From Paraspadella gotoi (taxonomy: Eukaryota; Animalia; Chaetognatha): a stretch of DNA of 64,000 nt. The position numbers and the translations under genes were made by a program. Each line of letters begins with the position of its first letter. The first letter of the stretch is position 1. The stretch lies in NCBI GenBank assembly GCA_051294375.1, contig CM119263.1:8684908-8748907 (forward strand). Direction: 5' to 3'. Positions 1,131 through 63,532 of the stretch are shown piece by piece. The notes below the pieces were generated by a model. The model did no database searches, was not told the origin of the DNA, and saw only the letters and a list, made by a program, of their open reading frames with translations.

Positions 1131-1217
<87 letters not shown>

Positions 1218-2129: not shown

Positions 2130-2162
<33 letters not shown>

Positions 2163-2621: not shown

Positions 2622-2710
<89 letters not shown>

Positions 2711-3972: not shown

Positions 3973-4094
3973 TAACTCTCGTCGTCCGGAGTTCAGATGA
4001 GGCGGCCGCAACCAATGTCAGCTCATCCAACAGAATCCATTTTTTAAATCCAGAGTTTGATAAAGTGGCTTTCAGGTGAATGTACCGCAAGAAT

Positions 4095-4131
<37 letters not shown>

Positions 4132-4150
4132 GGAGAGAGAGAGAGAGAGA

Positions 4151-4233
<83 letters not shown>

Positions 4234-5908: not shown

Positions 5909-5960
<52 letters not shown>

Positions 5961-7408: not shown

Positions 7409-7477
<69 letters not shown>

Positions 7478-8218
7478 GAGAGAGAGAGAGAGAGAGAGAT
7501 GAGAGAGGAGAGGATGAGAGAGAAGAATAACCAGCCGGAATACTTGGTCCACGAAGGGAAGCTATTTTGATTAAATTCACTTCTCGTCTTCATCAAAAAA
7601 ACGAAATTTTGATATTTTTCACGGAAGATTTTTCTGGTTAATAACGCAGATAAGAAAACAATGAAAGGAAAATTCATGGGAAACACTTTGAATTTCTAGT
7701 TTGTTTTTTTTTTCCTTCGTTATCTTGTTTAATGTGTAACATTTTCATTTTCTTCCTGACCACCCTTTACTACCGTGGTCTATTATACCCTTTCTCTACT
7801 ATTCAACTAAATACAATCCTTTTCTCTTCAATTAACGCGCGACCTTCTTCATAAAATCGCCTCCCCCTCTCCGCTTAACCCGCTCGGCCAGGCGCGTCTC
7901 CTGGTCCAATCCGCCCGACGAGACCGAGCGTGGTCGAGCGCTCCGACTGAGGGAAAGATCCATGCGCTGCGGAATAGGAGCAGGTTGAGACTTGAGGAAA
8001 GCCAGGGAATGGAGCGGGGGTAACAAAAGAGAGGGGATGGATGGAGATTTCAAAGAAATTACTTTTCTAAGAGGCGCGTTCGATATTTTGTGTCGCTTCT
8101 TTATTTGTTACTTCACTTCGTTACTCGTTATACTGGCTTGCGTGCTCTTTTTCATTGACTGATGGTCCTTACCTAACTACAATTAGTAACTAATCAATTT
8201 GGTTGTACTTCTTCTCTT

Positions 8219-8257
<39 letters not shown>

Positions 8258-9001
8258 NNNNNNNNNNNNNNNNNNNNNNNNNTCTCTCCCAATGACCACA
8301 TAAGAAAAGGGCCGTTTAATTGTATCTCCGTCCTTTCAAAACAAAAAATTCGCGAGCAATCTCATTAGATTTTAACGATTTTAAAGGTCATTAAATCTTT
8401 ACATTAATTAGATCCTCAGGGGAGATAAAGAGTCGTTATGTCCATTAGGTGTAGGTAATTGAAATAAATAGATGATTCGTCGTTGATTATTTATTATATA
8501 TTTATTTTCGTTAGTTTGTTGCTACTCGAGTCTAATCATTTATTACTTTTTTTCGACTTAAATAAATTTTTCGACGAAAATAAATAAATAAATCGACTGA
8601 ATCAAAATAGAAATTTAATTAAAATACTACTTTAAAAGAAACTCACTATTTCACGTGATTCAGAAATCGGTACGGGAAGGAGAAACACCTTCACAATGGT
8701 ATTAAAAATGTTTCCGTATTTAACAAGCGAAAGCCTTCCATTATTGTTTCTCAAAAACGCGAGCCTCTCTCTCTCTAACCCTTTTCGAGAAAGACCCCAT
8801 AAATTAAACATCTTCTCTGTTAGCTTTCATCGTCGTTGTCGTCGTCGTCGTCGTCGTCGTCGTCAACCAGTCTTGTTGTTTCTTCTCCGAATATTCATCA
8901 ACGCGTTCCCAGCAGGTGACCGACAAAGCGGGCAAGAAGTCGAGAAGAACTCGCATGTCATTTCAAAGTTACAATATTTTGACGTGAAAGTAAATTGTAA
9001 A

Positions 9002-9417
9002 TTTAGTAGTTAATAGTTTGATTTGGTCTTTTCATGCCAATAATATAAAAGGAAAACAAATTATTTCTGGAAGTAACATAAATATTTATATTTAAATAAG
9101 CACTGATCTTCAGAGACTTCTGTCTCCCTCAAGGTGCATAAACAAATTAACACAAAATTTACAAAACAGTTTTAGGTAAGGTTTCTACTCTTACCATTTG
9201 GCTGAAAATCCATTCAGCCAAATGGAAGAGTAGAAACCTTACCTAAAACTGTTTTGTAAAATTTGTTGTTAATTTTGTTATGCACCTTGAGGGAGACAAA
9301 GTCTCTGAAGATCAGTGCTTTATTTAAATATAAATATTATGTATTCTCCAGAAATAATTTTTTTCCTTTTATATTTATTGGCATGAAAGACCAAAGCAAA
9401 ACTATTAACTACTAAAT
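9002..9417. repeat. ~415-bp fold-back hairpin (~205-bp arms, ~7-nt loop); foldback/MITE-like
   Basis: Centre ...CCATTTGGCTGAA AATCCA TTCAGCCAAATGG...; arms remain complementary out to ATTTAGTAGTTAATAG / CTATTAACTACTAAAT, with scattered mismatches and indels. Confidence 0.9.
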
Positions 9418-17016: not shown

Positions 17017-20000
17017 ATGGTTATTCCGACCAAATGGATGATAGCACTCGTCGTTATAGTTGCTTCCGTCGAAATCATTGAGGGTAAGTTAAATGGGGAA
17101 TTATTCACATTTATACTAGTAATTCTTTTCTTTCTACAATCATAAATACCTAAGGTTTCAAACACGAAACATAGCATATATGAATACGAATTCTGCATTG
17201 TTTCAATTTTCTAGAAAAATAGTATTAAAAAAATGTAATGTTGTAGATTGTAGAAGTATTAGCACTCTTTCTATCTCTCTACCTCCCACTCTATCATCAC
17301 GACGGTGTAACATTAGCTTTGGAAAATATAATATATTACGAAATTTTTTATGAAGAAATCAAATATTCGAGATATGAGGATTAAAGCAGAAACGTAAGCA
17401 GAGAAAACAGAAATCCCAAAGGCAAAATCTGACGATGGGAAACCCTAGGTGGAAACTGGAATCCACTTCTTATTTGCTCTGCGGAATCTCACGTAACAAA
17501 ACCCAATTTAATAGAAATAGATTTTGTCCATCCGATATGACCGAGGCCTGGCTGATAATGCCCGTAAATAATACCAATTATAGTTATTATATTATGCATT
17601 GTATTTTTTTTAGATACTTTTTAGATTAGTTTTTCGCTGTCGAACGGTTGGTGGATTTTAGTCCATCGTAGCCTTTCTGATTTTTATTTTTATGCTATTG
17701 GTTTCGCGAATTTGTTTGGTATCTCTAAGGAAAAACATTCGAATCGCTCAACATTTTATTTAAAATCAATATATAACTAATAAAACATTTCCGATTGAAC
17801 GACGACCCATTTGCGAAGGCAGTCCGACGCGATGATAGATTACTTCGACGACGAGATATGTCGATCGAATCGAACTTTTCGCTTCGTCTTCAAACCTTGG
17901 AGCGATGAGATTGGAGCTGGAACGGTGGCGCCGAACCGAACCACGTCGGACATCAACGACCTGGCGCTGAACGGTCACTACTCCATCTTGCTGAAGGAGT
18001 TTTTGACCAAATGCCCCATCAACTACATCATCACTCACTTCGACGGAGGCTGGGGAAGGATTACCGAAGAGGACGAGCCTGGCATGCTGGAGGAATTATA
18101 CGAGGGCAATTTCGACATGACATTGAACGCGGGATTCGTTTTTCATTGGAAACAACAAATAGTGCGATGGACTTCTTACACGGGATTGGCCATTATGTTG
18201 GTGGTTCTAGAACCTCCCGCCAACACTTTCAACGGTTTGAAGGAAGTCTTCGAGAAGACAATGACGAACGAATCTTGGTTTGCCATTTATTTCACGTATT
18301 TGTTCGCCGTCGTTACCATGGCGATTTTGAAACATCGTCAGATGTCAACATTTCGTCTGCGGTCCTTGTGGGAATCCGCGTATCTGGTCTTGTGCGACGA
18401 ACAGCCGGATGAATCTTTTCAAACCCAAATTTTTTGGATTTTTTGGAAATTCTTCTCCTTTTTATTCGTTGCTTTGTTTTCCGCGGGAGTTTTGTCGAAC
18501 GTCATCAACAAGGAAGATGGAATTAATTCCATCTCGGATCTGCTGAGCCGAAACCCAGAACAGAAGATATTCTGGGACAATTACACGGATCAACTCCTCG
18601 TTAATCACGCTAAGGAAACCAAGTTGTATTCGCTTTTGTCACAACACCGAGTACTCTTCGGTCCGCTAATCAAATCGATTGTGGTTTTTGACATTATATT
18701 CTAAATTAAATAATTTAAATTAATAGATTAAATATTTTAGATTAACTAATTTAAATTAATAGATTAAATAATTTTTGTTTTGATCTTTTTCTTTGGAGAA
18801 CATGAGCATAAAAATATTTTAAGATATTCTTGTACTATTGTACAATATACAATATTATATTATACATGTTAGTTTTTCAAAGAAAAAAAGTATTTTATAT
18901 TTAATTTGCGGACCGTAAAGACGAAAAGAGAGAGAGTATGCTCAGTGCCGCAATATGGGAAAAGCACTTGAGCGATATGAACCACGCTTTACTTATCATC
19001 TCGGACATCGTCCACAGCTTCAATCAGTCGGTCCTGTGCCGCTGGAAATTCGTGGAGGACGTCTCTATCGTTTTGGGCAAAGGCTTCGTCGTCCAAGCCA
19101 AAGAGCCGGAGCTTCTCTCGGTCTTGAATCGGCACATCCTCGGCGAGATGGGGAAAGGCCGAGTCTATCTGGCCAAGAACATGCTCGAAAGACAAGCGCG
19201 GCTGGCGAGGTGCCCGGTACGAAAGAAGAATGGTTTCATACCCATCGCCGTCTTGAGAGACTTGGCCATCGTCACTTTTTGCGGGATGTGCGTGGCGATA
19301 GCGGTGCACTTGGGCAGGGGTATTTTCGCTGTTATAAATCGTAAAGTCGGCACTGAGGTATGAAACAATTTGATGTAAAAAATCTCGTTGTGCGGCAAAA
19401 AATCATGTGATTTGACAACTGTTTTTGCCTGAATCTTCCAGGATTTATATTTTTACTTCTGATATTCATAACGACGTGTAATTGATCTTTTAATATCTAC
19501 ATCGAATGATAAGCATTTAAAATGCACAAAGCACGTATATTATAACACGTACTATATTTCTAAAGTCTAGTTGCTTTCTCGAAAATTTATATCTCGAACA
19601 TCCCGATAAAATTCTATTAAAGAAATGAATCTGTAAAAAGAATAACAATGATCGAGCTGTACGAGGACGAGATCTGCCGGTCTAACCGGACATTTCGTCT
19701 CGCGTTCAAACCCTGGAAGTCGGAGATCGATTCCGCGTCAGATGGAAACGCTTCCACCGTCGAGGGCCTCGTCATGGACGCACGGATGACGATTCTCCTG
19801 AAGGAATTCTTTCTCAAATGCCCCGTCAAGCACGTCGTCAAGCGCTACGATGGCGGCTGGGGCGGAGAGCGGGGCGGCATGCTGGAAGAAGTGGAGAAGG
19901 GGAAATTCCACCTGGTTCTCAACGAGTACTTGGTGCGTCATTGGAAGCAGCAACGGCTGCGTTGGTCCATGCTGACGAGTCTGGAGGATCTGATGGTGGT

Positions 20001-22979
20001 GGCGAATCGCGAGGGCGACGCCTTCGACGGTTTGATCTCCGTATTTAAGAAGACGGTCAACTCCGAGTCCTGTCTACTTATTTTTCTCACCTTCCTCGTC
20101 GGGCTGCTCGCATTGGTGGTCATGAAGCGAGCGGAGGGAGTCGAATCTGACGACGATTCCCCGCCGCCGAAGCAGAAAGGTTTGTAGCAAAGTTTTTTCG
20201 ATGATATTTAGGCTAAAAATTATGCTAAGACTAATTCTTTGATTATTTATTACATAAAGTAGTGATAAACACAAAAAGACTTTAAGGAATAAATTATACT
20301 CCAATGCACCCTTGGCCAGGCATCTTCCGCAGTCTCTGGTCCGCCGTCTACTCAATGTTGAACGACAATGAACTCGGCGATTCCGTTTTTCTTCAAGCCT
20401 TTCATATTCTTTGGAAATTCTTTCTCTTTGTTGTCGTCACTCTCTTCTCGGCGGGCGTTCTCGCCAACGTGTTTCACCTCCATCGGGGCGTCCGCACCAT
20501 CCAAGATCTGGTGAAGAACCCGGACCAGCGATTCGCCTGGCATCCCTTCTTCGATCCTCTGCTGCAGCACTACGAGCCGGAGCGGGCGGGGCTGGTCAAG
20601 TCGCGCCGGGTCATCTTGAACGACTCAGCGCTCGACTTCGACAACTGGTCTAACAAATTCTTCGACGAGAAGATGGCGTTGCTCGTCTCCTCCAACGTCC
20701 TGGGCGGCGCCGATCGCGACGTCATCTGTCGGTGGAGAATTCTGGACGAGGATTCGATCGTGTTCGGCAAAGGGTTCGTGCTCGACGCGCGGGAGACGGA
20801 GTTGCTCTCCGTCTTCAATCGTCACGTGGCCTCGGCGATGGCCAGAGGGCGCGTCAATCTCTCGGAGAATCTTGATCAACTCCAGGACAAGATCAGAACC
20901 TGCGAAGGGAGCGCAGGGGAGAGCTTCATGCCGGTGTCGGTGGTCAGGGATCTCACCAGAACGACCTGCGTTGGGACATTGATGACCATGGGATTGCAGT
21001 TGGGCAGGAGGGGATTGGGGGCGTTGAAGGGGAAGAGGAGAGTCGTGGGGTGAAGAGTAGGGTGGAGGAAGAGAAGTGTTAAATGTCCATGGTGTTGAAG
21101 ATCGAGCCTTTTTCGCAAGGATGGTTCATCGGAGAACATTACAGAAATCGCGATTCATCCAAATAAAAAAAAATCTTTTTTAAACTTTTTTCAAAATCTT
21201 TATGTTTTTGAAGTATTTCATTCACATTTGTAGTATGTGTTGTTGTACACAAACATATATCTTTTTAAATATTTCATGTCCTCATCTTCGTACGTTTAAA
21301 AATATATGGTCTTGTATATTTTTGGATTGTGTATTACGAAACCCACAAACATATCAATTTGAAAAGGGTGACTTAAATTTTAAAAATAAGATAGAAAATT
21401 CTTTTAATTATATAAGCTGCTACCTTTTAAAAAATACAAAACCGATAAAAAAAAAAATTAAATAAATTCATGAAAAATCTTTAGTTATGGCAACAGCCGG
21501 GTTGCCTATGATGCCCATTGGGATGGGGCATCTCACTGTTGCTTCGGGGCTTCCCACCCTCAGTAACGCCTCCTGTCACTGGCGCTGTTACCCAAGGACA
21601 GTCTCGCTTTGCCAACGCTTGAGATGGTGTGTTCCCCCTTTGAGCCAATTTATGTGAGGCGGTGTGAATATACCACCACACAGCCTTGTTTTAAGAGATA
21701 TCTCTCTCTAAGGCTGTGTGGTGGTATATTCACTCATATATACTTATTACTCGCAAATGGGTCATTCAGTCACTCTGCCCTTATGGTACCTTTCATCTAT
21801 AACTCTCCGACAAAAGGTCTCCAGTGCATCGAATGCACCGGCTCGTCGACGCTGGACAACTGCTATCGCGACCCCGCCTCTCAAAGCTCCTACACGATCC
21901 GACGCGTGACTTGCTCTCCCAGGAATGCCAATCAAGGTACAAGCCGCTGAGGGTTATTTGCAGCAATAATAAAGACCCTGGCTATCTCAAGTCGAGCGGG
22001 CAAGGATTGATAGTTTAGCTGTCAATCACACGTTTCATTTGACGATAAGAGTGGAGAGGAATCAAGGAATGTTGCGGTGCATATTTTACGTTTTTCAGGA
22101 TTCGGTATGAATCCGATGTTATTCGGTAAGATGGGACCACTTGGCGGGAATGTCGCACCCAATCAACTACTTCCACCTTCTGGCATCAACGGTCACGCGA
22201 GTACGGACCACGGAAGCATCTACGACACGGCTGTCGGTGATCAGGGTGAATTTTATTTTATATATTTATTTATTTATTTACTTATTTATTAATTTATTAA
22301 TTTATTAATTAATTTATTTATTAATTTATTAATTTATTAATTTATTTATTTATTTTTTTATTTATTTAATAACAAATATCAATAATATCGTTAACGGACC
22401 TCGATCGTCGAGGATCGTTGCTGCTATGAAGTTTTCTTTTCGTATGAAAATATTGTAAAAAAACTTTGCTAAGTTACAGATAAACGTAGACATTGTGTTA
22501 AGCCTTTCTTTTTGTTGTTTGTTTTAGATTTAATGATGAAGGCTAGAAATCTGAGCCGAAACATGTCCAAATTTTATCTAAAATTAAATTGTTGTTTCAC
22601 GAAAATTTCGTTTCACTTAAAGATAAACGTACAAACGCGTTTTTTGTTTGTTAGGCGGGAATCTGTTGGATTCTCTCCTCGGAACCGGAGACGTCGGCGC
22701 AGCAGCCGCAGCCGACGGGATGCTGCTTAACTCCAACCCTCTCCTCAGAAACAACAACAACGCTTTCGCCTGGAATCAAATGAGAGGAGGCACCGCCTTT
22801 TGTCAAGTCATCGTCAACCGGAACAGAATCAGTGAGACGACAGTCAATAAAATAATGACACTGCATTCTTTTCTGATCCTTTGTCATTTTTAATTCCAGC
22901 CGGAGCGTTGATCAACATATCCCGGGGATGCAGTTACGCGCCTCCAGGTTTGAGAGGAGTCAAATGGAAAGAGATAAAG

Positions 22980-35627: not shown

Positions 35628-36714
35628 TGGTTTATAATTTATTTGGAAATATGTAAGGATGCCATTTTTTAAAAAAGTTATTTCATTGGTTATGAACCAA
35701 ACTTCATAAAAAAATTAATCTGAAGCGATCATTTCATGTTGAATGCATTTTCATTTTTTATTTTATTTTATCTCAGGTTTTTTTTAAATCTTAAACTATT
35801 TTTGCTACCCCCCGTTTTCAAACGCAGAAGACCATGGAATAAACATTTTTACCTTTATAAAATTCCCAGTGTGCCAAACAATAGTTTTTTTAATAGTGAG
35901 CAATATTTGGTTATTTTTTTTTTAAATATCGTGTTTCACCCTGACCTTTTTAAAATACAAAAACGGTGACAGTACTTCAATATAAATTATTTATGTATTT
36001 GGAATTCCAAAATTTTTTTATAAAGGAGTTAATGTTGCGCAGTTAAAAACGCACAATTTTTATCCAGTTATAGTATGGTAAGGATAATTTGACATGGAGT
36101 GTCTGTAAACAGTCTAGATATATATTAAGGGTATTTAAGTTAATGCATTTCAAATGATTGCTTTTACATACAAGCTCTTTGGATTTTGTATCTACTGTGA
36201 TAATTGCAACTAGTAATTTCATAGCTTTCACAATTCGTAAATAGTCAATCAAGCTGTTAACTGTTTAATAACAGTAGGTGATCGAAAACTGTTTTATAAA
36301 AACAAGATGTTTATCATTATTGTATAGGTTAATTTTTTATGATTTATGGTAGTATATTTATGATACGTTTCAAGATAATTTTACCATTGCTTTGTGCATG
36401 AAAAATTAAAAATTTTAAGTATATTTTGTCCTAGTTTTTCAATTTTGTATTTACATTGTGGGGTCAGTAATCATGCACTTGTTTGTCGGTTGATTTTGTC
36501 CAACTTATTTTTCAAATCTTCATAACTCTGGTAAAACTGCATAAATTTAGGTAATACTTGATAGAAAGGAGCAAGCATATCATGAGATTTTTGTGCATAT
36601 GTTTCATACAATGTGCAGTAACATGACCCCTTTAGAATTGTGGTTACATTATCTTAAATGCGGCATAATTTATGTATATACTGTGGTGGACTAAAATCCA
36701 CCAACCGTTCATCA

Positions 36715-36787
36715 GCGGCCATTGGTGCCGGAGGCAAGTCATTCGCCTCCCAACCCAAAGGTCCGGGGTTCTAGCCCGGTGGTCGCC
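36715..36787 (+). ncRNA. tRNA-like (Gly-CCC-like) module inside LTR1; second copy ~37706-37779
   Basis: Acceptor-like pairing GCGGCCA/TGGTCGC, TTCGCCTCCCA anticodon-like segment and T-arm-like CCGGGGTTCTAGCCCGG. The D and anticodon arms are degenerate, so this is not a functional tRNA. Confidence 0.6.
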
Positions 36788-36788
36788 T

Positions 36789-36862
36789 AGCAGTTAAGAG
36801 GGACGGGGCGCTTAACCCGCCTAACACGGTGCTACAGCCTGATCCGAAGCTCAGGGACTGCT
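36789..36862 (+). ncRNA. Candidate twister ribozyme, type P5 (LTR1 copy; P3 partly decayed); predicted cleavage 36813/36814
   Basis: P5 AGCAGU/ACUGCU; L1 GA-CGG and U^AA; CCC-GCC; P4 CCUGA-UCCGAAGC-UCAGG; pseudoknot CCG:CGG. Confidence 0.65.
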
Positions 36863-37780
36863 TACATTGAATGGTTCTGTCACTAACACTTAACAATTAT
36901 CACTGTCTCATTGGTGAGCTCGACTTCCAAACACAACAGCAACAACAACACTTTCAGGCGNNNNNNNNNNNNNNNNNNNNNNNNNNNNNNNNNNNNNNNN
37001 NNNNNNNNNNNNNNNNNNNNNNNNNNNNNNNNNNNNNNNNNNNNNNNNNNNNNNNNNNNNNNNNNNNNNNNNNNNNNNNNNNNNNNNNNNNNNNNNNNNN
37101 NNNNNNNNNNNNNNNNNNNNNNNNNNNNNNNNNNNNNNNNNNNNNNNNNNNNNNNNNNNNNNNNNNNNNNNNNNNNNNNNNNNNNNNNNNNNNNNNNNNN
37201 NNNNNNNNNNNNNNNNNNNNNNNNNNNNNNNNNNNNNNNNNNNNNNNNNNNNNNNNNNNNNNNNNNNNNNNNNNNNNNNNNNNNNNNNNNNNNNNNNNNN
37301 NNNNNNNNNNNNNNNNNNNNNNNNNNNNNNNNNNNNNNNNNNNNNNNNNNNNNNNNNNNNNNNNNNNNNNNNNNNNNNNNNNNNNNNNNNNNNNNNNNNN
37401 NNNNNNNNNNNNNNNNNNNNNNNNNNNNNNNNNNNNNNNNNNNNNNNNNNNNNNNNNNNNNNNNNNNNNNNNNNNNNNNNNNNNNNNNNNNNNNNNNNNN
37501 NNNNNNNNNNNNNNNNNNNNNNNNNNNNNNNCACATTTGCCTCATCCTGGTGATGCACTTCCGCCAACAACACAATCAGGCAATATGCCTCAACTTGGTG
37601 GCAAACTTTCCACCAACAAACAATTCACTTGAAGAGACGCAACAGACTTCTCCCTACGGGAGGGGGGGATGTATGGTGGACTAAAAATGCACCAACTGTT
37701 CATCAGCCGGCCATAGGTGCCAGAAGCAAGTCATTCCCTCCAAACCCAAAGGTCCGGGGTTTTTAGCCCAGTGGTCGCCT

Positions 37781-37855
37781 AGCAGTTAAGAGGGATGGGC
37801 ACTTAACCCGCCTGTAACACGGTGTTACAGCCTGATCCGAAGCTCAGGGACTGCT
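37781..37855 (+). ncRNA. Candidate twister ribozyme, type P5 (LTR2 copy; intact P3); predicted cleavage 37804/37805
   Basis: As LTR1, with P3 CUGUAACA/UGUUACAG and pseudoknot CCG:UGG (G-U wobble). Confidence 0.7.
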
Positions 37856-38039
37856 TACATTGAACGGTTCTGTCACTAACACATAACAATTATCACTGTC
37901 TCCTCAATACTAAGCCCACTAAGTTGATACTTTACAAGATACCATAAAAAGATTGTTTTGCAGAGGTTTCATTCTTGCGTAGTTACATACGTGATCCCTG
38001 TAAAATATGGATGGATGTAGAACGACAAAAAGTGAATGA

Positions 38040-38730
38040 GGCTTTTTAGTCGGATCTGCTTATCAGAAGATCGACCCTGTAATCCAATTTGTCGGTCATT
38101 TACTTATATATAATATCATATCATATTAAAACATCAAACAATGGTTAAAATATGCAAAAAAATGATATCCGTCCTTCTGTCTGTCTGTCTTTCTGTCCAT
38201 CCCACCCTAGCAAAAAAACTCAAATTACTGGAAATGAGTTTAAATGGAAAAAACTTACTTGAAACTTTTTACTAATTCTAACCCATAAATACTCTAATTA
38301 ATCATAATTGGATGAATAGATAGAAATGAAATTTTGTGTGTGGGTAGGAAGGTGTGTGATTGAGCAGGATACAAAGTTTTGATGAAATCGTACGAGTGGA
38401 TATGAGTTTAAATGAAAAAACCAAAGTGAAATTGACTTGAATTTTTACTGATGTTTACTCATAAATGTTTTAATTATTATTATTATTTTTATTATATCAG
38501 TCACATTAACTTGTTGTTGTTTTATATTTCTCTCTCTCTTTCTCTCTCATCATTGCAACATCATCATTATCATTTTTATTAGTTTATGATCTATTATGAT
38601 CAGTTTTGTTTGTTTTCTCTCTCTCTCTCTCTCTCTCTCCCACTTCATCATTAGATAATTCTGATGATTGATGGATTTCCCATGACATACGATCTCTCTC
38701 TTTACATTGTTTGCTCAAACTTGCTTTTTT
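38040..38730 (+). mobile_element. HINE/DINE-1-like (Helentron-associated) non-autonomous element fragment
   Basis: (GTCY)n microsatellite followed by CCCACCYTAGCAAAAAACTC, internal GAAATGAGTTTAAATGGAAAAA repeats and TTTGCTCAAACTTG, all shared with 43500-44190. GTCGGATCTGC here is the inverse of GCAGATCCGAC in the other copy (subTIR-like). Confidence 0.5.
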
Positions 38731-38834: not shown

Positions 38835-38883
38835 AAGTCGGACAAGTTTCAACTCTTAATTAAGAGACTTCTTCAGCGATCTT
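38835..38883 (-). ncRNA. Candidate minimal type-I hammerhead ribozyme; predicted cleavage after the GUC at 38843-38841
   Basis: CUGAAGA (38876-38870), palindromic stem II CUCUUAAUUAAGAG, GAAAC (38850-38846), stem I AAG-A-UCG/CGA-CUU, vestigial stem III as in PLE hammerheads. Confidence 0.65.
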
Positions 38884-39140
38884 TACCAATCAACAATTTT
38901 CTCTCTTTAACATTAGCTTTGAGAGTGAGAGAGAGAGTGAGTTTGAGAAGGAGGGAGATTCTTATCTTCTTCCCTGTCCTTACCTTCACCTGTCCTCACA
39001 TCTGACCACTGTCCTTTCTAAATTCTTTGTTGGAATCTCCCTCCTTCTCTCACTCACTCTCTCTCTCTCTCTCACTCTCAAAGCTAATGTTAAAGAGAGA
39101 AAATTGTTTATTGTTAAAGATCGCTTAAGAAGACTCTTAA

Positions 39141-43499: not shown

Positions 43500-44190
43500 A
43501 CAAAGTTTGGCTCTAATTATGGATAAACGATGTCCGTCCGTCTGTCTGTCTGTCCGTCCGTCCGTCCCACCTTAGCAAAAAACTCCAATTACTCGTGATT
43601 GGATGGATGGATTGGAATAAAATTTTGTGTGTGGGTAGGGAAATGTGTGATTGAGCTGGATATGAAGTTTCGATGGAATCGTCCGATTAAAAATGAGTTT
43701 AAATGGAAAAAACAAAAAAATATAGTTCACTATTTGAATACCAATTACTCATGAATGGATGGGACGATTGACTTGAAATTTTGTATTTTGGTAGAAAAGT
43801 GTGTGATTAAGCTGGAAATCAAGTTTCGATGGAATCGTTTGAGTGGAAATGAGTTTAAATGGAAAAAATAAAGAACCTGTTTCACTAATTGATTATGCTT
43901 CTTTTTTTTAATTTTAAATGTAAATGCAAGATGTATTAATTAATCAAATAATTAATCAGTTAATCAATTAGTCAATTAATTAATCAATAATTAATTAATC
44001 AGTCCATCAAAACAAACATTTTGGATCAAATTAATTAATTAATTTCCTAATCAATTAAGTAATTAACTTGATTAAATTAATTATTAATTAATGAAATAAT
44101 TAATTATCTTGAATTAATTATTAATTAATAAATTAATTACCGATAATGATCGTGGGCAGATCCGACATTATTTGCTCAAACTTGTTTATA
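43500..44190 (+). mobile_element. Second HINE/DINE-1-like copy
   Basis: Same (GTCC/GTCT)n core and internal repeats as 38040-38730. Confidence 0.5.
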
Positions 44191-53291: not shown

Positions 53292-56200
53292 TTCGACGTC
53301 TTGTTTGTCAAGGGGTAAGTTTGCGAGTGACTCCGCTGACGAGTTGTGCAGAGAGTGAAAAGTTTATGGTGTCTTCCGGCCTAAGCCATGGGTCGGGTTA
53401 AGTGAGGTCGGGTTAAGTGAGGTCGGGTTAAGTGAGGTCGGTCGAGTTCATTGTGCTTAAAAAGATTCGTCGCTTCCGTCGTCGTCGTCGTCGTCGTCGT
53501 CGTAAAACTCCACGGAGACAGAGAAAACAAAAGACAAAGTTATATCGTCCACGACTTTATAACTTTTTAAAAGGCCATGTCCTTACGATTTGTACGTTAG
53601 ATTCAATCCTCAAACAACAAATAACAAAAACTATTAAAAAAAATTGACTAAGAATCGAGTCCGATTTGAAATTACAAAAAAAAAAATTAAAAAAAAAAAT
53701 CATCGGAAATCTGAAGTGGTTGTTGAATCTGATGTCGATTTTTATCGGAAAAGAGGAATATTAATGGTTTCACGCGGGAGGAAGGGAGGGAGGAAAGGAG
53801 GAAGGGAAAGGGGGGGAGGGTGAGAGGGGAATAAGGGGAGAGGGGAATAAGGGGATAAGGGGAGGGGAGAATTAGAGAGGGGATGGCGATGACGAAACAA
53901 GAGGAAGGGGAGAAAGAGAAAATAGGGTGAAAAAAAAACATGGGAGAATGATAAAGAAAAGATAAAAAAGGAAACAGCGATTAACGATAATTAGAAAGCG
54001 AATGAAAACAAAAAGAAAACAAAAAGAAAAAAAAACAGGTTTAGGAAAGCTAAGAAAAGGAAACATTTCAGGATATTTTTAAAGTAAGAAGATCACCAGT
54101 CAGTAAGGATTAGTGCCAAATAGAAAGAAGCGAAAAAGTCAGAAAAAAAAGAAGAAAATGCTAGTGAAGAGAATTGAAAAGAAGTCTTGAGCTCAAGTCT
54201 TTCAGAAATGCGGGATATGATGAAAGAAAAGATGGAGAGAAAGAAGCAGAGGATGAGGAGGAGAAGAGAGAGAGAAAAAAAGAGGAGATAATATCGACAT
54301 CCTGGAAACTAAGTATTGACGCTTAAAAAGAACAACAAAAGTGACTTTGACCTTAAAACAACATCCACCGAAAAGAAACTTCTATAAACGCATTAGACAG
54401 AAACAAAAAGAAAACACATGACAATTATTAGGTAAGTTAACATTAGCATGAAACTTACTCACCTTCTACCATCTCAATCTCGTCTCGTTTCCTCCACACC
54501 TCACCAACCATCGGGATGTTGTAATCCCCCAGAAAGGCCTCTCGCTCCACCATCGATTCCGGTTGTCTGTAGCAGATGGTCAGCTCCTCTCCCCGCTCCA
54601 CTCGACCACTCGTCCTCATGGTCATCACGCTCCCCTCGGTGCTCCAGACGACGTTCGGGGTGAAGGAGTGGTTGAAGAGAGCGGCCATGGGCCAGAGGCC
54701 AGAAATGTCGGTGTCTAGAGGAGGGCGGGAAGCGTGACTATGGTACATTGCCAAATGCAATAACTGATATCTGCTCAATCTGCTGTAGTTTTAAAATGTA
54801 AGAAGTAACAACTTCCGTTGCCTATGTCGAGGTTCCCTTATCATAGTAATAAATATGTTAAAAGAATATATAAAAGATAACCTCCCATGCGGGGAATCGA
54901 ACCCCGGCCGTGACGGTGAAAGCGACAAATCCTAACCACTAGACCACATGGGACGCCACTCTTTATTATCGCCTTGAGCCCAACGCGACGACAAGATGAG
55001 TTCATCTTCAAAATATCGACAAATTGGAAACTTACTTTCTTTCGGCTTATCTCGCTCCTCCTCCTCCTCCTCCTCCTTTTTCTCCTCCCTCCCTCTCGTC
55101 CTCGGTTCTCGATGCAGCAGATTGAAGAGGGCGGGATTTGCGGCGAAAGAATTGGCGGCGATGACGAGCGCCGCTTTCCGCTCCGTCGGCCAGCGGAGTC
55201 GCGGTTGTCGGCAGACGTCGAATGATGACAACAACCTCGTCGTGATTTCCTCGTCGACGTCGACCTCCAAGATTCCGGGCAGAAGCGGAGGATCGGATCC
55301 GTCGATGACGAAAACGTCCGGCGTCGGTCGGGCTTCAGTGTCCGCTGAAGGGCCGATTAACGTTTGACTATAAATTTTTAAATACAAAGTTTTAAAGCTG
55401 AAACGTAATGATATCTTGACTCCGCTTTAGTAAGCTGACAGAAGAAGGCCGCGCCAGCGTAATATAAACGGACCACGCAGGTTGATTAATAAATGTTCAA
55501 AGTTAATTAGAATGACGTTTCCTCAAGGACTTCAATTCAAAGCGACGTCGATGAATATTCATTTTCCCATAGAAAAAGGTTTAGCCTTTTAGGCCCAAAC
55601 CGAGTTGCCAACAACGTCAAACCACGTCAACATCGGATAACGTCAAAAACATCGTATACCATCGGCCAACGTCCTTCACCTTCGTCAAGTTTTTCGTCGA
55701 CGTTATCCGTCCCCACCGACAACGCCTCAACTCGCGGCGCCCATTCCGCGGCTTCGCTCGTTTCCATGGCGACCCTCGCCCGGCGCCCTCTGTCCACGGC
55801 GCCGAGAAAGGTCATCAGCGGAGCCCCGACGTGGAGGAGCACGCCGGCGTCGAGGGCTTGAGTGGCGACGACGCCGAATCCTTTGAGGGGGAGATGGGCG
55901 ACGCCGAGTGGGCCGTAGTACTCGGCCGCGTCCCAGCGGGCTGCGGTGTGATCGGTGGTGGTCGGGGTGGAGGATGTGGTTGATGCGGTGGTGGTTGTGG
56001 TGGAGGATGTGTTTGTTGTGGTGGTAGTTGTGGTGGTGGATGTGGTTGATGCGGTGGTGGTTGTGGTGGCTTTTGTGGAAGGGTAGGAGTGGACGGAGGA
56101 GAGAACGTAAGGGATCCAATCAAAGTCGCCTAATTGAGAAAAAGAAACAAAAATCAAAACAGATTATATCCTTCTGACTTTTTAAATAAATAGATGAAAA

Positions 56201-58044: not shown

Positions 58045-59624
58045 ATGGAAAAATCGCCGCCACCTTGCCGTAGCATTTGGAGGAGAAAAAGGTGAGAATA
58101 TACCAATATCGATTCTAGTCTAAATAAATTACATCGTTATTAATATATTATTCGGTCGCTGCAGCCGAACGCAACCACGAAATTAAATAATTTTCAAATG
58201 GTTTCTCTCCTTTCATTACCCCTCGGCCCAGAATCTCCCCATTTTCTTTTTTCCTCCTGTTCTTCTCATCGAGCTTATATACCTGGGACGTCGTGTCCGA
58301 CATGCTTCAAGCCCGATCCTACGCCGCGGCCGGGCAGACCTGGTGGTCGCGATTGACCATCGCCTTCGTGTTTCTGCCGGCGATCCCGGTGGCGCTGTTA
58401 TCTCTCTATTCGATCTGGGCTTCCGACGCTTACCCTTCGAAGCGGTGGCGAATTTTGGGAACGATCGCGTCGGCGACTTTGTTGGGTCCAGTTTTCGTTA
58501 ACTGCGCCTCGGTCGCGTTGGAGGAGGCGGAAGAGGACGAAGACGATAACGTCGGCCATCGTAGAAACTCTTCCGCAAACCTACATTCAACATCGCTCGC
58601 TCCAAACGACCACCCTTCTCCCTCCCAAAGCATCGCGTCAAAATCTTGCCAAAACTTTCGAGACGTCGTCGTTAAATTTTATCCGGTTTGTACGAGAACC
58701 TGGTATTCGCGCCCGCGAGACACAGCCTTGCTACTCATCTTCTTCGAGGTCTGCTACGAATCCCTGCCGCAAACTCTGCTGCAGATCTACATCGTGATGA
58801 CCACCAACGTGATCGTTGGCCAACAGGTGGTCACCGTCGCGACGAGCATCTTCGCCGGATTCTTCAACTGCGTCTGGTACAAAATCTTCTTTTACCGAAA
58901 ACTTTTCGGTTTCATGACGAACGAACGGTTGGAGAAGAACATTTTTCTAAAGAGGTTGGGCGACGCCTTGGGCCTCGCCCTTGCCTTAAACGGACCTTTT
59001 TTCTTCCTGGTCTCGGCCAATCTCGTCGCTACGCTACCCTTCGTCGGTCAGTCCGCGCTAATGTTCGTTCTCTGCATGGTCTTCTACAGTCTCTGTCTAG
59101 CATCCAACGCGGTCAAGTATTACCTGGGCCATTTGTTTTCCAAAGGCGAGGTTTTTGTTTTTAAAGTGGTGCCGATGCTGCCGCTGGTGTTTCTCGTAGT
59201 TTTGTTCTTCATGGCGGCGCCCATTTACTTATTGGGCATGATAGCGACTGCGTCCACGTTTTCGGAAAGGGGTGTGGTCAACATTATAGGGAGCATCTGG
59301 ATGGGAAAGGATCAACCCCTGCTCAACTTGACTACCGACTGCTCGTTGCTGTCGCGAGGCGGAACGTTTTACAACAATTTCACTTTGTGGGTCTCTTCTT
59401 CGGGATGGTCCGAGAATCTGAGAGAGTTTTGGGAGGCAGATTTGGTTTGCTTGACCGAAGCTTATCCCTTAATATCAACGATTTTCCGAGTAAATGCGTT
59501 AGTTATGGCAATAGAGACTTTGATAACTGTTTTATGCATGACGGTTCACGACGCGGCTAAGTTTCGCCGAGACTCTAACTCGATCTGCTACAAAATAAAA
59601 TCTCTCAGCCTCAAGAAGTTATGA
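58045..59624 (+). CDS. XK-related (XKR scramblase family) protein 1; exons 58045-58091, 58232-59624
   Basis: YTWDVVSD, LTIAFVFLP and EVCYESLPQTLLQIY motifs; multi-TM; phase-2 intron. Confidence 0.85.
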
Positions 59625-59856
59625 TCTTGAAACACAGATAAAAACCGGTGGGTTTCATTTTAAAAATAGGAAAAACGTTATGAAATAAATTTAAAAAAAT
59701 AGAATAATTGACAATTTTAAAGATTTGTCTGTCAATTTCTTAAATTGAAATTAAATATAAATTTACAAACTTTTTATAGGTTTATCTTTAATTTAATATA
59801 CGTACGTTGATTTTCATTTGAAAAGTTTTTTTTAATTTAGAATACAGGAAATAATT

Positions 59857-61368
59857 ATGACGAATTTAATGAACAATTCCGAAAAAGAGGATGACCATGA
59901 GGAAGTAAAAGGAATCAATCAACGGAATACCAGGTTTGGTTTTCATTGCTATAATCGAGCTTTTATTGAAAAAAGAAATGGCTAATGTATTTCTATTATT
60001 TCAAGATGCCTCCTTTCATATGTTATCGCATTTCTCGGTTCTTCCTTTTATGTTTGGGATGTGACAACTGATGTGTTGCAGGTAAAACAGTAATGCTCTC
60101 ACTCAATTACTAGAATTATATATATATATTTTTTGAAAGTTAAAAGTATCGGTTCTGAACTCTTTTAGGCACGATCATATATGGTTCATGGAGACATTTG
60201 GTGGTCACGACTGACCTTTGCCTTTGTTCTACTGCCTTATATCATTATTGCAATTATCACTCTTACTTTTATCAAAAACGAAAATAGGATGACAAAGCGA
60301 AGTAAGGTCTTTGCTTCGATTGCATCATTTTGCTTTCTCGGGCCAGTTTTTATCAAGTTTATGGCTGCGTCCAAAGAGAGACGATTCCCTAGGCATAAAA
60401 TTGATGACAACCTTGAGAGTTCTAAGTCGAATTCTGCGGGCATCAAAACATCCATAAATAATAAACTCAGTTTTTTCACGTGTTTCCTCAAAAAAATGAG
60501 AAACTGGAAGAGCGACCCAAATACTACAAATGAAATGATCACACTGATTGAGGTGAAATGTGAATCGGTTCCTCAGATGCTGTTACAAATTTATATCATG
60601 ATGAAAAGTAATCTTGTTACGGGGCAACAACTTTTAACGGTTTCAACTTCTATGTGGTCAACCATTTTGCATAATTTAAATTTCAATATGTGCTTTTACA
60701 AAAATGTGTTAAACTTTGTTTTTACAAAAGTTCAAAAAGGAAAATTTTTTATTGTTTTTTATACTGTGCTCTCGTTTTTTAATGGCGACAATATTTGTAC
60801 TTTTCTTTGGCTTCTATTTAACATTACTTTTTGTTTACCATTCATTGATAAAATCATTTATATTCTGATAATGACCTTTTTTGTTTTTCAATATTACTTT
60901 TTTATTATTGGTTTGAAATTCTATTTCGGCTGTTTATTTTCTGCAAGAAATGTATATATTTTAAAAAATTTTATCTGTTTTGTTATTTTATGTGCTGTAG
61001 TAACAAGTATTTTCTTTTCATTTGCACAAATTTCAAATAATGATTTTTTAAATTATTTTGTTGATATTCTTAATAATAGAAGTAACTTTACCTTTGGAAG
61101 TGAAAATATTCTTCGAACACAACTTTCTAGAAATGGTACGTTTTATACAAACTTTTTTTTCTGGTACTCTCAAGGAAATTTTATTGAAAATATTCTAGAA
61201 TTTTGGACCAATAATATTTTGTTTATGAATGATTTTTATTCTCATACATTAAAGTATTTCTACATCAGTTTTTATATGTTGCTGTTAGAATTTATATTAA
61301 ATACTTTTATAATGTTAATTCATGATATTATTTTATGTTTTAAAAATAATAAGGATCGTTTTAAGTAG
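59857..61368 (+). CDS. XK-related protein 2; exons 59857-59933, 60006-60081, 60169-61368
   Basis: YVWDVTTD and EVKCESVPQMLLQIY motifs; consistent splice phases. Confidence 0.85.
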
Positions 61369-61869
61369 ATGAAATATAGTACTTTTACTACTATTATTAC
61401 TATTACTATTACTCATGTATACAAAACATTTGTTATTCAAATTGATTGGGATAGAATTTTTAAAATAGTTATAAATATTTTACTGGATAAATTTTTGATG
61501 TTATAGTCCTACTTCAGAGAGAAGTGTTTTCTCTATTTATTTAAACCAGGCCATTTTGTACTAAGACGCAAAAAAGTGTATCAGTCATTTTTTTAAAAAT
61601 TAGAAGCTTGTACAAGCTCATACAATAACGTTTAAGTAATTGATTCATATTTAATCAAAACGGATAAGTATTTAAAAGTTGTATACAAGATTCAAGTCAT
61701 TTAAAAAATTTGTGGGGAAAAATCTATTTCAATTTTTAAGAATCTATTTTTTTTCTCTTTCTATGAAATGTTTAAATTATTTTTAATGTATAATTAGCTA
61801 AATTAATTGTTTGGATTTTTTCGCGGCGTTGTTTATTTCGTCCTCATTTAAGGTCGGTGTTCCCAGAAA

Positions 61870-63532
61870 ATGGAAAATTCAAACCAAACCAAGTTGATTA
61901 AAGGAAAATATGAGCTATGGTAAGTCATCTTTTCTCACTTGTAAAATCGGTACAATTGGTATTTTGCTCTCTTTCCTTTTTTGTAGTCTCGACAAAATGC
62001 CTTATTTAATGGTTCTACTTACTTCAGTGCTATACTGTTGGGACATTATGTCAGATATTCTTCAGGCTTTATCATATAGTAAATCTTACCATTTCTGGTG
62101 TGCTTATCTGACTTTAGGCTTTGTCTGCCTCCCAGCGATATTAATTGCTTTATTGACACTGTTTTTAGTATGGAAATCAGACGAATATCCTTCAACGATT
62201 TGGAAAGTAGTTGGAACAATCAGTGCACTTTTAATGTTGGGACCATTATTTGTACAGTTTTCATTGGTTCTGAAGAGGAAAAAAGAAATGGCGAATTTTG
62301 AAAAGAAAAATAACGAAGAAAAAGCAGAAAGTGGCGATACAGAGGAAGATTGCAAAACAGTGACGATGTTTTCAAATAAAATTTCAGAAGATTTGGTTGA
62401 AATAACTCAGCTTGAAGAGTTGCAAACGACTGAATCAAAAGGCATCGGTTGCAATTTAAAAGCGGCTCATTATGTCAGAGAAACTGTCATGAATAACTAT
62501 CCTTTATTCTCAAAAAATTGGTATTGTGATCCAGAAAAACTTCTCCCCATACTTTTATTCATTGAGGTACATTATGAATCAATGCCACAAACAATTTTTC
62601 AAATTTACGTATTACTGATAACCAACGTAGTGACTGGTCAGCAAATAGTTACAGTTGCTACTAGTATCTTATCAGGATTTCTCAGTAATGTATCCTACAA
62701 ACTCTTATTTCATAAACATTTTTTAAACTTTCTTTTCTGTGGATTACCAAAACAGTCCCATTTATTTAGAATAATATTGGGATTTGTAGCATTTGGAGTG
62801 TCATTAAACATATCTTTTCTCTTGTTGGTTACTGGCTACATGGTTGCTGCCAGACTCTACATTAATCGACCTCTAATAATCTTTCCTCTTGGTATGGCAT
62901 TTTATACTATGCTTCTTACCATTACATCGATGAGGTATTACATTGGATCATTATTTTCAAAAACGGATGAGTATGTCTTCAAATCGGTTGTTATTTTTGC
63001 TCCAACGATTATCATTAATGCTCTTTTTACCGCAATACCGATTTTTATTGGTGGATCAGCTGTATCATCAACTATAATTATCAATAACGACCATATTTTT
63101 AATGGTAAATTGGAAAAAAATTAATATTCTTCTTTATAAATTAATCAAGTATGACCCTTAGAGTTTTTCAGTTAAAAAAAATAGGTTTACCTAATTTTTT
63201 GCGATGAAACAGGTACAACTTATGTGGAACATTTACAGAATTCATGGACTGGCTATGAAAATTTCATTCTCAACACTCACTGCAACAAATCATTGCTGTC
63301 TCGTGACGGCGCATTTTATGACAATTATTTGCTATGGTTTTCAATGGGAAAAAATTGGACAGCCAATTTTGTTGAATTTTGGGAGGTTGGTCTCTTTTGC
63401 ATAAACAATGCTTGGTCCTCCATTTATAGCGCTTTTAATTTTAATATAATCATTTTCATCTTTGAAACCATACTCATTATTCTCTTTATGATCCTTCATG
63501 ACTTGCAAAAACTTAAGAGAAATTGGAAGTAA
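61870..63532 (+). CDS. XK-related protein 3; exons 61870-61919, 61987-63104, 63213-63532
   Basis: YCWDIMSD and EVHYESMPQTIFQIY motifs; a phase-1 intron joins the two ORFs. Confidence 0.85.

What the first reader, a model, noticed from the sequence alone, without database searches (positions are those of the whole stretch)
36678..37910. Animal LTR retrozyme-like element: each LTR carries a tRNA-like module plus a twister ribozyme
Seen: two ~230-bp direct repeats with TG..CA ends, a 4-bp TSD (ATAC), a PBS immediately after LTR1 (TGGTGAGCTCGAC, 11/13 to the tRNA-Trp-type PBS TGGTGACCCCGAC) and a PPT immediately before LTR2. The interior is short, with no recognisable gag/pol in the sequenced part. 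Each LTR holds a tRNA-like segment followed directly by a twister-like fold. Known: plant LTR retrozymes are non-autonomous Ty3/gypsy derivatives with PBS, PPT, 4-bp TSD and a hammerhead in each LTR, and they yield circular RNAs; Cassandra TRIMs carry 5S-derived Pol III promoters in their LTRs. Inference: this is an animal counterpart that uses a twister ribozyme and a tRNA-derived promoter. Cleavage in both LTRs would release a ~1-kb monomer (36814-37804, length includes the gap estimate) with 5'-OH and 2',3'-cyclic-phosphate ends that RtcB could circularise. I know of no described family with this combination, but could not search.
Basis: partly seen in the sequence, partly recalled or inferred. 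Interest (0 to 1): 0.92.

Follow-up and report, generated by a model that had tools for sequence, protein, structure and literature searches.

The report
Animal mini-retrotransposon with twister ribozyme LTRs
A short repeated element with paired terminal repeats, in what is likely an animal genome, carries in each repeat a decayed tRNA-like segment followed by a sequence predicted to fold into a self-cutting twister ribozyme, so it likely spreads through a circular RNA as plant retrozymes do, a combination not found in the papers searched.

Summary
The anatomy is real: two LTRs (36682-36910, 37670-37906; 91% identical), a 4-bp target duplication, a Trp-type PBS and a PPT. Public runs show many copies ending at the same two boundaries. 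What is new is the ribozyme. Rfam's twister models miss it, but both LTRs fit a P5-permuted twister with both pseudoknots fully paired and the catalytic G and A in place (0 of 100,000 shuffles). Two of its oddities, a 3-nt P2 strand and a swapped T1 pair, occur in Rfam-recognised phage twisters; P1 is vestigial. Two published wasp Helenus families, the only ones seen with a Trp PBS, carry an apparently unreported hammerhead-like motif in the same slot. Best reading: a Pol III-driven LTR retrozyme-like element replicating through a circular RNA (0.55). Cleavage, transcription and circles are untested, and this copy looks old and damaged. New variant of a known kind; interest 0.72.

The parts
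36678..36681 (+). Left target-site duplication (4 bp)
   Evidence: Sequence; chance about 0.008
36682..36910 (+). 5' LTR (229 nt, TG..CA)
   Evidence: 91.3% identical to LTR2; 186/140/13 contigs in X1/X2/X6 diverge just before 36684
36715..36787 (+). Degenerate tRNA-Gly-like module: 7-bp acceptor stem, 5-bp T stem, B-box 10 of 11, A-box with 2 mismatches; putative internal Pol III promoter
   Evidence: sub-threshold in ARAGORN and absent from Rfam
36789..36862 (+). P5-permuted twister-like ribozyme, copy 1; predicted cut between 36813 and 36814; P3 damaged, P1 vestigial
   Evidence: T1 3 of 3, T2 2 of 2, P2 2 of 3 pairs; P4 5 of 5, P5 7 of 7; descriptor test; top hit of model R1 in the window, 20.0 bits, E 0.011
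36912..36924 (+). Primer-binding site, tRNA-Trp type (11 of 13)
   Evidence: Compared with Fig. S2 of PMC10886601; most other copies match 12 of 13
36911..37669 (+). Interior, 759 nt of which 571 are N; the sequenced ends are made of ~47-50-nt degenerate repeat units that resemble the LTR-end/PBS junction; no Pfam family in the two short frames tested
   Evidence: Unit alignments reached in 4, 30 and 0 of 5,000 shuffles; loose end behind 36960 in X3 resembles 37583-37612; Pfam none; TRF found no array
37658..37669 (+). Polypurine tract (12 purines) abutting LTR2
   Evidence: Sequence
37670..37906 (+). 3' LTR (237 nt, TG..CA)
   Evidence: 94/87/7 contigs in X1/X2/X6 diverge just after 37906
37707..37779 (+). 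tRNA-like module, copy 2, more decayed; five-T run at 37760-37764
37781..37855 (+). P5-permuted twister-like ribozyme, copy 2; predicted cut between 37804 and 37805; intact 8-bp P3
   Evidence: T1 3 of 3 (one G-U), T2 2 of 2, P2 2 of 3, P3 8 of 8, P4 5 of 5; P5 7 of 7; second hit of R1, 16.3 bits, E 0.065
37907..37910 (+). Right target-site duplication (4 bp)
   Evidence: Sequence; junction bridged by contigs in 3 of 4 runs under the tool's 31-letter rule

Best explanation
This is a short, high-copy LTR element of the Helenus (tRNA-in-LTR) type with no recognisable coding sequence in its sequenced parts, whose LTRs also carry a predicted twister ribozyme, and it likely works as an LTR retrozyme: RNA polymerase III would start at the tRNA-like module of the 5' LTR, the two ribozymes would cut out one unit length, and a host ligase would close it into a circle. 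Shown: paired LTRs, duplication, PBS, PPT, many copies with the same ends, no run of four or more T in LTR1, and a twister-compatible fold at the same place in both LTRs. Inferred: Pol III transcription; self-cleavage at 36813/36814 and 37804/37805; circularisation by RtcB, as shown in vitro for animal non-LTR retrozymes (PMC7229834). Also inferred: tRNA-Trp-primed reverse transcription of the circle by a Gypsy element's RT, which reads through the junction and rebuilds two LTRs without a terminal R repeat, as proposed for plant retrozymes (PMC4918200), then Gypsy-integrase insertion with a 4-bp duplication. The function is argued for the family; this copy is probably old and inactive.
For: Anatomy. 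Many copies with sharp ends and unrelated flanks (agreement 0.40-0.52), and short contigs holding one whole LTR between unlike flanks, consistent with solo LTRs. Ribozyme: both pseudoknots fully paired and the catalytic G and cleavage-site A present in both LTRs. The descriptor matched 2 places in the window and 0 of 100,000 shuffles. None of 73 chance motif matches from metagenomes reached a 5-bp P4, while both LTRs have a 5-bp P4 and a 7-bp P5. Natural precedent for its oddities: all 8 tested phage twisters with a 3-nt P2 strand and all 4 with the swapped T1 pair pass Rfam Twister-P5's gathering score (20 hand-picked of 208 loci). A model built only from 43 phage twisters ranks the two LTRs first and second in the window, above the best of 40 decoy loci (13.5 bits). 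A published high-throughput test found P1 and P2 defects tolerated and pseudoknot or catalytic-base defects not (PMC11662667; PMC5113685), which matches where this motif is damaged and where it is intact. Parallel case: Helenus-2_SyJa and Helenus-2_SyUm, the Trp-PBS families, carry a type III hammerhead-like motif directly after their tRNA-like module (read by eye in DataS1). Plant retrozymes also fold with the ribozyme blocked (PMC4918200 section 10).
Against: No Rfam twister hit even at E<=10. Model R1's scores are weak (E 0.011 and 0.065, rough) and it aligned the motif in a different register that fails T1, T2 and P2. The descriptor's limits were set after seeing this motif. No natural example combining a 3-nt P2, a swapped T1 and a 1-2-bp P1 was found (0 of 73). 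A competing hairpin that buries the catalytic G and the T1 strand has probability 0.76-0.79 in the predicted ensemble of LTR1's ribozyme, pseudoknots not modelled. Co-folding the two ends of the predicted monomer did not rebuild the ribozyme's closing helix. The tRNA-like module is sub-threshold. Only two copies were available as sequence, so no true covariation was measured; between them the ribozyme has 6 differing columns in 74 nt against 9 in 73 for the tRNA module and 5 in 48 for the tail, so it is not clearly better conserved. No contig listed spans the gap, and no Gypsy partner was seen in the window.
Confidence: 0.55

Rival explanations
1. The twister is active but acts as a 3'-end cutter in place of a Pol III terminator. 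Transcripts cut only in the 3' LTR (36715-37804) keep a ~100-nt terminal repeat and retrotranspose by ordinary strand transfer; circles, if any, are by-products.
For: LTR1 has no run of four or more T, whereas many Helenus LTRs show a T-run after the tRNA-like part (seen by eye). The competing hairpin would make cutting slow and partial. Cassandra is described as using a short terminal repeat made by Pol III (PMC10886601).
Against: Both LTRs carry the same motif, so cutting in one only needs an asymmetry that nothing here shows. Plant elements with a ribozyme in each LTR yield circles (PMC4918200).
Confidence: 0.17
2. An ordinary Helenus TRIM whose LTR once captured a tRNA-headed, twister-bearing SINE or LINE fragment; the ribozyme is a decayed passenger with no role in mobility.
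For: Kojima proposes SINE insertion into an LTR as the origin of Helenus. Twisters sit at the 5' end of RTE-type LINEs (PMC8501958), and the P3 arm resembles the Schistosoma twisters in that paper's Table 1. P1 is vestigial and P2 imperfect; the ribozyme is not clearly better conserved between the two LTRs.
Against: The LINE-linked twisters in that table run in P1 order, whereas this one is P5-permuted with an internal cut site. All pseudoknot pairs are kept, in a T1 version that differs on both sides from the common one. A different ribozyme class appears in the same slot in wasp Helenus.
Confidence: 0.18
3. The twister resemblance is chance, and the segment is simply a structured part of a TRIM LTR.
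For: No Rfam match; ribozyme fold z-scores are only -0.9 and -1.3; R1 E-values are modest.
Against: 0 of 100,000 shuffles and only these two sites in the window fit the descriptor; 0 of 73 chance motif matches have the helices.
Confidence: 0.05
4. Not one element: two solo LTRs or SINE-like copies on either side of a mis-sized scaffold gap, or an element whose gap hides gag-pol.
For: No listed contig spans the gap, and left-junction contigs reach only 27-30 letters into the LTR, short of the tool's 31-letter rule.
Against: Matching 4-bp duplication at the outer ends only, PBS after LTR1 and PPT before LTR2. The sequence on both sides of the gap belongs to the same repeat unit. Contigs continue from 36960 into that unit, and one joint runs from 36960 to 37627 in X1 and X2.
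Confidence: 0.05

Closest known systems
Helenus / TRIMp3 (Kojima 2024, PMC10886601), especially the Trp-primed Helenus-2_SyJa and Helenus-2_SyUm
   Same: Short LTR element, tRNA-like segment in each LTR, PBS and PPT, 4-bp duplication as in animal Helenus, length 1,225 nt within the reported 311-1,263 range, Gypsy-type Trp PBS.
   Different: A twister-like ribozyme follows the tRNA module. The paper's text never mentions twister, and mentions hammerhead only in a reference title. The twister motifs I searched were absent from DataS1 as twister-like contexts. The tRNA module is more decayed, lacks the usual A-box sequence, and has no T-run after it in LTR1.
Plant LTR retrozymes (Cervera et al. 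2016, PMC4918200)
   Same: One self-cleaving motif per LTR with an internal cut site, PBS, PPT, 4-bp duplication, non-coding interior, ribozyme predicted in a blocked fold, unit length up to about 1 kb.
   Different: Twister instead of type III hammerhead; Trp-type instead of Met PBS; internal tRNA-like promoter; likely animal host; LTRs about 230 nt rather than 300-400; circles not shown here.
Animal non-LTR retrozymes (Cervera and de la Pena 2020, PMC7229834)
   Same: Animal repeat with self-cleaving motifs delimiting a unit; RtcB circularisation is the precedent.
   Different: Those are tandem repeats with type I hammerheads and lack LTRs, PBS and PPT; a 2026 preprint's title calls them non-autonomous sequences of Penelope-like elements (10.64898/2026.07.22.740005).
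Type-P5 twister ribozyme (Rfam RF02684) and Schistosoma T-variant twisters on Perere-3 (PMC8501958)
   Same: Strand order of the P5 permutation, both pseudoknots, L1 and L4 core; P3 arm resembling the Schistosoma twisters; retrotransposon context.
   Different: P1 reduced to 1-2 pairs instead of a ~8-bp hairpin, 3-nt P2 strand with one mismatch or bulge, swapped T1 pair, A-U pair closing L4, an actual P5 helix; sits inside an LTR rather than at a LINE 5' end; scores below Rfam detection.

Membership tests
Helenus (TRIMp3) | Two LTRs with PBS and PPT at the ends of a short interior | tested here: met
   element 1,225 nt including a 571-N gap
Helenus (TRIMp3) | 4-bp target-site duplication (animal Helenus) | tested here: met
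   ATAC at both outer ends of this copy; other copies' duplications could not be read
Helenus (TRIMp3) | tRNA-derived segment with A and B boxes in each LTR | tested here: inconclusive
   Relaxed ARAGORN score 88, tRNA-Gly-like; B-box 10 of 11; A+B in 135 of 20,000 shuffles; no Rfam or default ARAGORN hit
Helenus (TRIMp3) | No protein coding in the interior | tested here: inconclusive
   No Pfam hit in the two short frames tested; 571 nt unsequenced, too short for gag-pol if the estimate holds
Helenus (TRIMp3) | Interspersed family with solo LTRs | tested here: met
   Many contigs diverge at both LTR ends into unrelated flanks; short contigs hold one whole LTR
Helenus (TRIMp3) | Pol III transcription | not testable with these tools
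   Also unvalidated for published Helenus
LTR retrozyme | Type III hammerhead in each LTR | tested here: not met
   No hammerhead hit in Rfam; the motif is twister-like. It works like a retrozyme but is not a member as defined
LTR retrozyme | LTRs, PBS, PPT and 4-bp duplication of Gypsy type | tested here: met
   the PBS is Trp-type, not Met
LTR retrozyme | Self-cleaved monomer accumulating as circular RNA | not testable with these tools
   Needs RNA from the host
Twister ribozyme | Two pseudoknots T1 and T2 | tested here: met
   5 of 5 pairs in each LTR; the swapped T1 version occurs in Rfam-recognised twisters
Twister ribozyme | Conserved L1/L4 bases including catalytic G and cleavage-site A | tested here: met
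   Present in both LTRs against the Rfam consensus lines shown
Twister ribozyme | Stems P1, P2, P4 | tested here: inconclusive
   P4 5 of 5; P2 2 of 3 plus mismatch or bulge; P1 1-2 pairs. P1 is reported dispensable (PMC5408937 abstract; PMC11662667)
Twister ribozyme | Score above an Rfam twister model's threshold | tested here: not met
   No hit; custom model R1 gives 20.0 and 16.3 bits
Twister ribozyme | Site-specific self-cleavage | not testable with these tools
   Needs an in vitro assay
Animal non-LTR retrozyme | Tandem repeats with type I hammerheads, no LTR/PBS/PPT | tested here: not met
   This element has LTRs, PBS and PPT

The most novel reading that the evidence does not exclude
Animals harbour an unrecognised class of Pol III-driven, Trp-primed LTR retrozymes hidden among Helenus TRIMs, in which the slot behind the tRNA promoter holds an interchangeable self-cleaving ribozyme (twister here, type III hammerhead in Synergus wasps) and replication runs through a circular RNA. 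In this family the vestigial P1 is a 6-nt self-complementary stretch, so the twister may cut only as a dimer formed between the two LTRs of one transcript, sparing solo-LTR transcripts and finished circles; this last step I put at about 0.2 on its own.
Probability: 0.45. Interest if true: 0.87.

Novelty: new variant of a known kind. Interest (0 to 1): 0.72.

Why it matters
Reviews describe LTR retrozymes as plant elements with hammerheads and animal retrozymes as lacking LTRs, PBS and PPT (PMC7761336, PMC7229834). In the papers read, the only retrotransposon role reported for twister is at LINE 5' ends (PMC8501958, PMC7761336). If this motif cuts, it gives twister a role in an LTR element and extends the circular-RNA route of LTR retrotransposition to animals. 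It would also show how a Pol III-transcribed TRIM can do without a terminator and a terminal repeat. The hammerhead-like motif in two published wasp Helenus families makes the idea testable at once in named genomes and suggests the design arose more than once. The motif is invisible to Rfam, so similar cases may be common and missed.

Tried and rejected
No whole genome is held for this window, so no copy collection, duplication survey or Gypsy-partner search was possible. Rfam found no twister, hammerhead or tRNA in the element. Sequencing runs: no RNA holder listed; run X3 is only guessed to be RNA and covers the intergenic flank, so it was not used for expression. A finer variant table for the ribozyme and a look at organisms B and C were not obtained, so cross-species covariation is open. 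Summed contig depth (4.7 million in one LTR bin against 200-300 on the left flank in X1) is not a copy number by the tool's own warning and was used only qualitatively. No empty-site joint was among the 15 joints shown; 194 were hidden. The metagenome scan for the family motif returned 73 loci with no BLAST similarity to the LTR, used as a negative control; 40 of the 73 were scanned with R1. The alternative register chosen by R1 was rejected because it fails one T1 pair, one T2 pair and all P2 pairs. The dimer idea: the 6-nt stretch self-pairs at -8.3 kcal/mol, but the dimer skeleton (-37.1) is far above the co-fold minimum (-58.5) without pseudoknots, and LTR2 has lost the symmetry, so it stays speculative. 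The idea that the monomer's ends are clamped by P5 was not supported by co-folding. TRF found no array in the interior. Host lineage was not resolved: one homologue search found nothing and the Atlas did not answer; 'animal' rests on EGF, XK-related, MORN and C2H2 genes. Earlier findings: none. Literature searches that showed no LTR element with a twister and no ribozyme in Helenus. Most subscription journals and Repbase are not covered, and the CHiTA supplement listing about 1,000 new twisters could not be read, so this motif could be listed there.
Full report
Observation. The window holds two direct repeats, 36682-36910 and 37670-37906, both TG..CA, 91.3% identical (13 substitutions, 12 gap columns). 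ATAC flanks the outer ends (chance about 0.008). A PBS begins one base after LTR1 and matches the tRNA-Trp PBS of Gypsy-32_NVi and Helenus-2_SyJa at 11 of 13 positions; the variant table implies most other copies match at 12 of 13. A 12-purine PPT abuts LTR2. The interior is 759 nt with a 571-N gap. The element lies in AT-rich DNA between two C2H2 zinc-finger genes; EGF, MORN and XK-related genes elsewhere point to an animal. The lineage was not resolved.

Is it a family? Nine of 11 listed runs, from 3 studies, hold the region. Laying four of them shows 186, 140 and 13 contigs (X1, X2, X6) diverging just before 36684, and 94, 87 and 7 just after 37906, with low agreement among the loose letters (0.40-0.52). 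That means many insertion sites with the same two ends. Short contigs of 264-328 nt hold one whole LTR between unlike flanks, consistent with solo LTRs. The right junction of this copy is bridged in 3 of 4 runs under the tool's 31-letter rule; left-junction contigs reach 27-30 letters into the LTR in all four. No listed contig spans the gap. However, an X3 loose end behind 36960 resembles 37583-37612, a joint from 36960 to 37627 stands in X1 and X2, and the sequenced interior consists of related ~47-50-nt units (4, 30 and 0 of 5,000 shuffles). The gap is probably a collapsed array, and interior length varies among copies, so the ~1-kb monomer is only this copy's estimate.

The tRNA-like module. 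ARAGORN at default and Rfam miss it. Relaxed ARAGORN draws a 73-nt tRNA-Gly-like cloverleaf at 36715-36787 with a 7-bp acceptor and 5-bp T stem, score 88, among 22 window hits at that setting. The B-box matches 10 of 11 and an A-box with two mismatches lies at the right distance (135 of 20,000 shuffles; box consensus recalled). Common differences among copies at 36783 and 36786 keep acceptor pairing, but these are transitions in G-C/G-U pairs and weak evidence. The module is best read as a decayed promoter. This anatomy is Helenus: TRIMs with a tRNA-like segment in the LTR, PBS, PPT, 4-bp duplications in animals and lengths of 311-1,263 bp, probably moved by Gypsy elements (PMC10886601; main text parts 1-4 of 6 read).

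The ribozyme. Rfam's twister models give no hit at any setting tried. Mapped by hand on the domain table of PMC8501958 and the Rfam consensus lines, 36789-36862 and 37781-37855 read as a P5-permuted twister. In both LTRs T1 is 3 of 3 and T2 2 of 2 pairs, P4 5 of 5, P5 7 of 7, and the catalytic G and cleavage-site A are present; P3 is 8 of 8 in LTR2 and damaged in LTR1. There are four departures from the consensus: a 3-nt P2 strand with two pairs plus a mismatch or bulge, a T1 pair changed on both sides, an A-U pair closing L4, and a P1 of 1-2 pairs. To test the first two I scanned viral contigs. Of 43 non-redundant well-formed P5-type twisters, 32 have a 3-nt P2 strand and 3 the swapped T1. 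Of 20 loci picked from 208, 18 matched Rfam twister models; all 8 with a 3-nt P2 and all 4 P5-type with swapped T1 passed the gathering score. None combined all the departures.

Controls. A generic descriptor, with limits set after seeing this motif, matches the two LTR sites only in 64 kb and 0 of 100,000 shuffled LTR2 sequences. None of 73 chance motif matches in metagenomes has a 5-bp P4. A covariance model from the 43 phage twisters ranks the LTRs first and second in the window (20.0 and 16.3 bits; E 0.011 and 0.065, rough), above the next window hit (13.3) and the best of 40 decoy loci (13.5). It used another register to satisfy its long P1, and that register fails T1, T2 and P2. Published assays find P1 dispensable, P2 defects tolerated, and pseudoknots and catalytic bases sensitive (PMC11662667 abstract, passages and section 35; PMC5113685 part 1 of 2; PMC5408937 parts 1-2 of 7). 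Against activity: a hairpin burying the catalytic G has probability 0.76-0.79 without pseudoknots, although plant retrozymes are also predicted with a blocked ribozyme (PMC4918200 section 10). The ribozyme is also not clearly better conserved between the two LTRs than its neighbours (6 differing columns in 74 nt; 9 in 73 and 5 in 48 beside it). I put the chance that this is, or recently was, a working twister at about 0.8.

A parallel in print, unremarked. I read parts 1 and 5-10 of 11 of the Helenus supplement, covering the animal families, and searched the whole file for short motifs, which misses motifs broken by line ends. I saw no twister. But the LTRs of Helenus-2_SyJa and Helenus-2_SyUm, the only families I saw with a Trp PBS, hold a complete type III hammerhead-like core with three paired stems and complementary loops directly after the tRNA-like segment. 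This was read by eye against the recalled hammerhead consensus and not run through a model. The paper's text mentions hammerhead only in a reference title. A 2020 review mentions insect elements with type III hammerheads as work in preparation (PMC7761336 passages), so animal LTR retrozymes with hammerheads may be known to that group.

Mechanism. Most likely Pol III starts at the tRNA-like module of the 5' LTR and, with no T-run in LTR1, reads through. The ribozymes cut at 36813/36814 and 37804/37805, releasing one unit with no terminal repeat. RtcB closes it, as shown in vitro for animal non-LTR retrozymes (PMC7229834 passages). A Gypsy RT primed by tRNA-Trp copies round the circle and rebuilds two LTRs, the model proposed for plant retrozymes (PMC4918200 passages). 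All these steps are inferred (0.55). Rivals: the ribozyme as a 3'-end cutter on a linear RNA with a ~100-nt terminal repeat (0.17), a decayed passenger from a captured SINE or LINE piece (0.18), chance resemblance (0.05), or not a single element (0.05). This copy is probably inactive: about 6% substitutions between LTRs, a five-T run inside LTR2's B-box region that would stop Pol III before the second cut, and a damaged P3 in LTR1.

Novelty. Nine literature searches showed no LTR element with a twister and no ribozyme in Helenus. A 2026 preprint (10.64898/2026.07.22.740005, passages) still describes LTR retrozymes as type III hammerhead elements found primarily in plants and has no occurrence of 'twister'. 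PMC13570524 (passages) lists Helenus and retrozymes separately. Subscription journals, Repbase and the CHiTA supplement were not visible. Verdict: a Helenus-type TRIM, with the tRNA criterion only weakly met, that probably works like an LTR retrozyme but is not one as defined. New variant of a known kind, interest 0.72.

Noticed in passing
PMC10886601 DataS1, Helenus-2_SyJa-LTR and Helenus-2_SyUm-LTR: Type III hammerhead-like motif directly after the tRNA-like segment in the two Trp-PBS Helenus families of Synergus wasps; not mentioned in the paper. Read by eye, not run through a model.
   Followed up: partly
window 17635-17665 (- strand): 31-nt fragment of the LTR's 5' end (93.5% identical, E 4e-8), upstream of a receptor-like gene; a truncated family remnant.
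   Followed up: partly
window 36703-36711 with 36868-36876; 37694-37702 with 37861-37869: A 9-bp long-range helix encloses the tRNA-like and ribozyme modules in both LTRs; the two differences between LTRs here keep pairing through G-U.
   Followed up: partly
window 36807-36812: The stretch where P1 should be is self-complementary (6 bp, -8.3 kcal/mol), recalling dimeric hammerheads; LTR2 has lost the symmetry, and the variant table suggests most copies keep it.
   Followed up: partly
window 36903-36960, 37537-37583, 37584-37635: The interior repeat unit resembles the LTR end plus PBS, as if the array grew from that junction; it may offer several PBS-like sites.
   Followed up: partly
L102-L151, L166-L242, L243-L309 (viral contigs): P5-type twisters with a 3-bp P2 outnumber the 4-bp form in these scans (32 against 11 of 43 non-redundant), and twisters with a swapped T1 pair are frequent; several contigs carry two or more copies about 0.3-3 kb apart.
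   Followed up: partly
window 38030-38430: A second, very high-copy repeat lies right of the element (high summed depth; related pieces at 43525-43895).
   Followed up: no
window 479-8157: A large inverted repeat (arms 479-2731 and 5867-8157 at 93%, with further nested arms); also long palindromes at 9001-9417 and 38860-39140.
   Followed up: no
window 58191-63124: Three tandem, single-ORF, highly diverged XK-related genes; the one searched had no relative at E<=0.001.
   Followed up: partly
window 17799-21053: Two tandem genes that look by eye like ionotropic-receptor-type membrane proteins; no Pfam family for the three ORFs tested.
   Followed up: no
window 54882-54953 (- strand): An ordinary tRNA-Glu(TTC) gene.
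   Followed up: no
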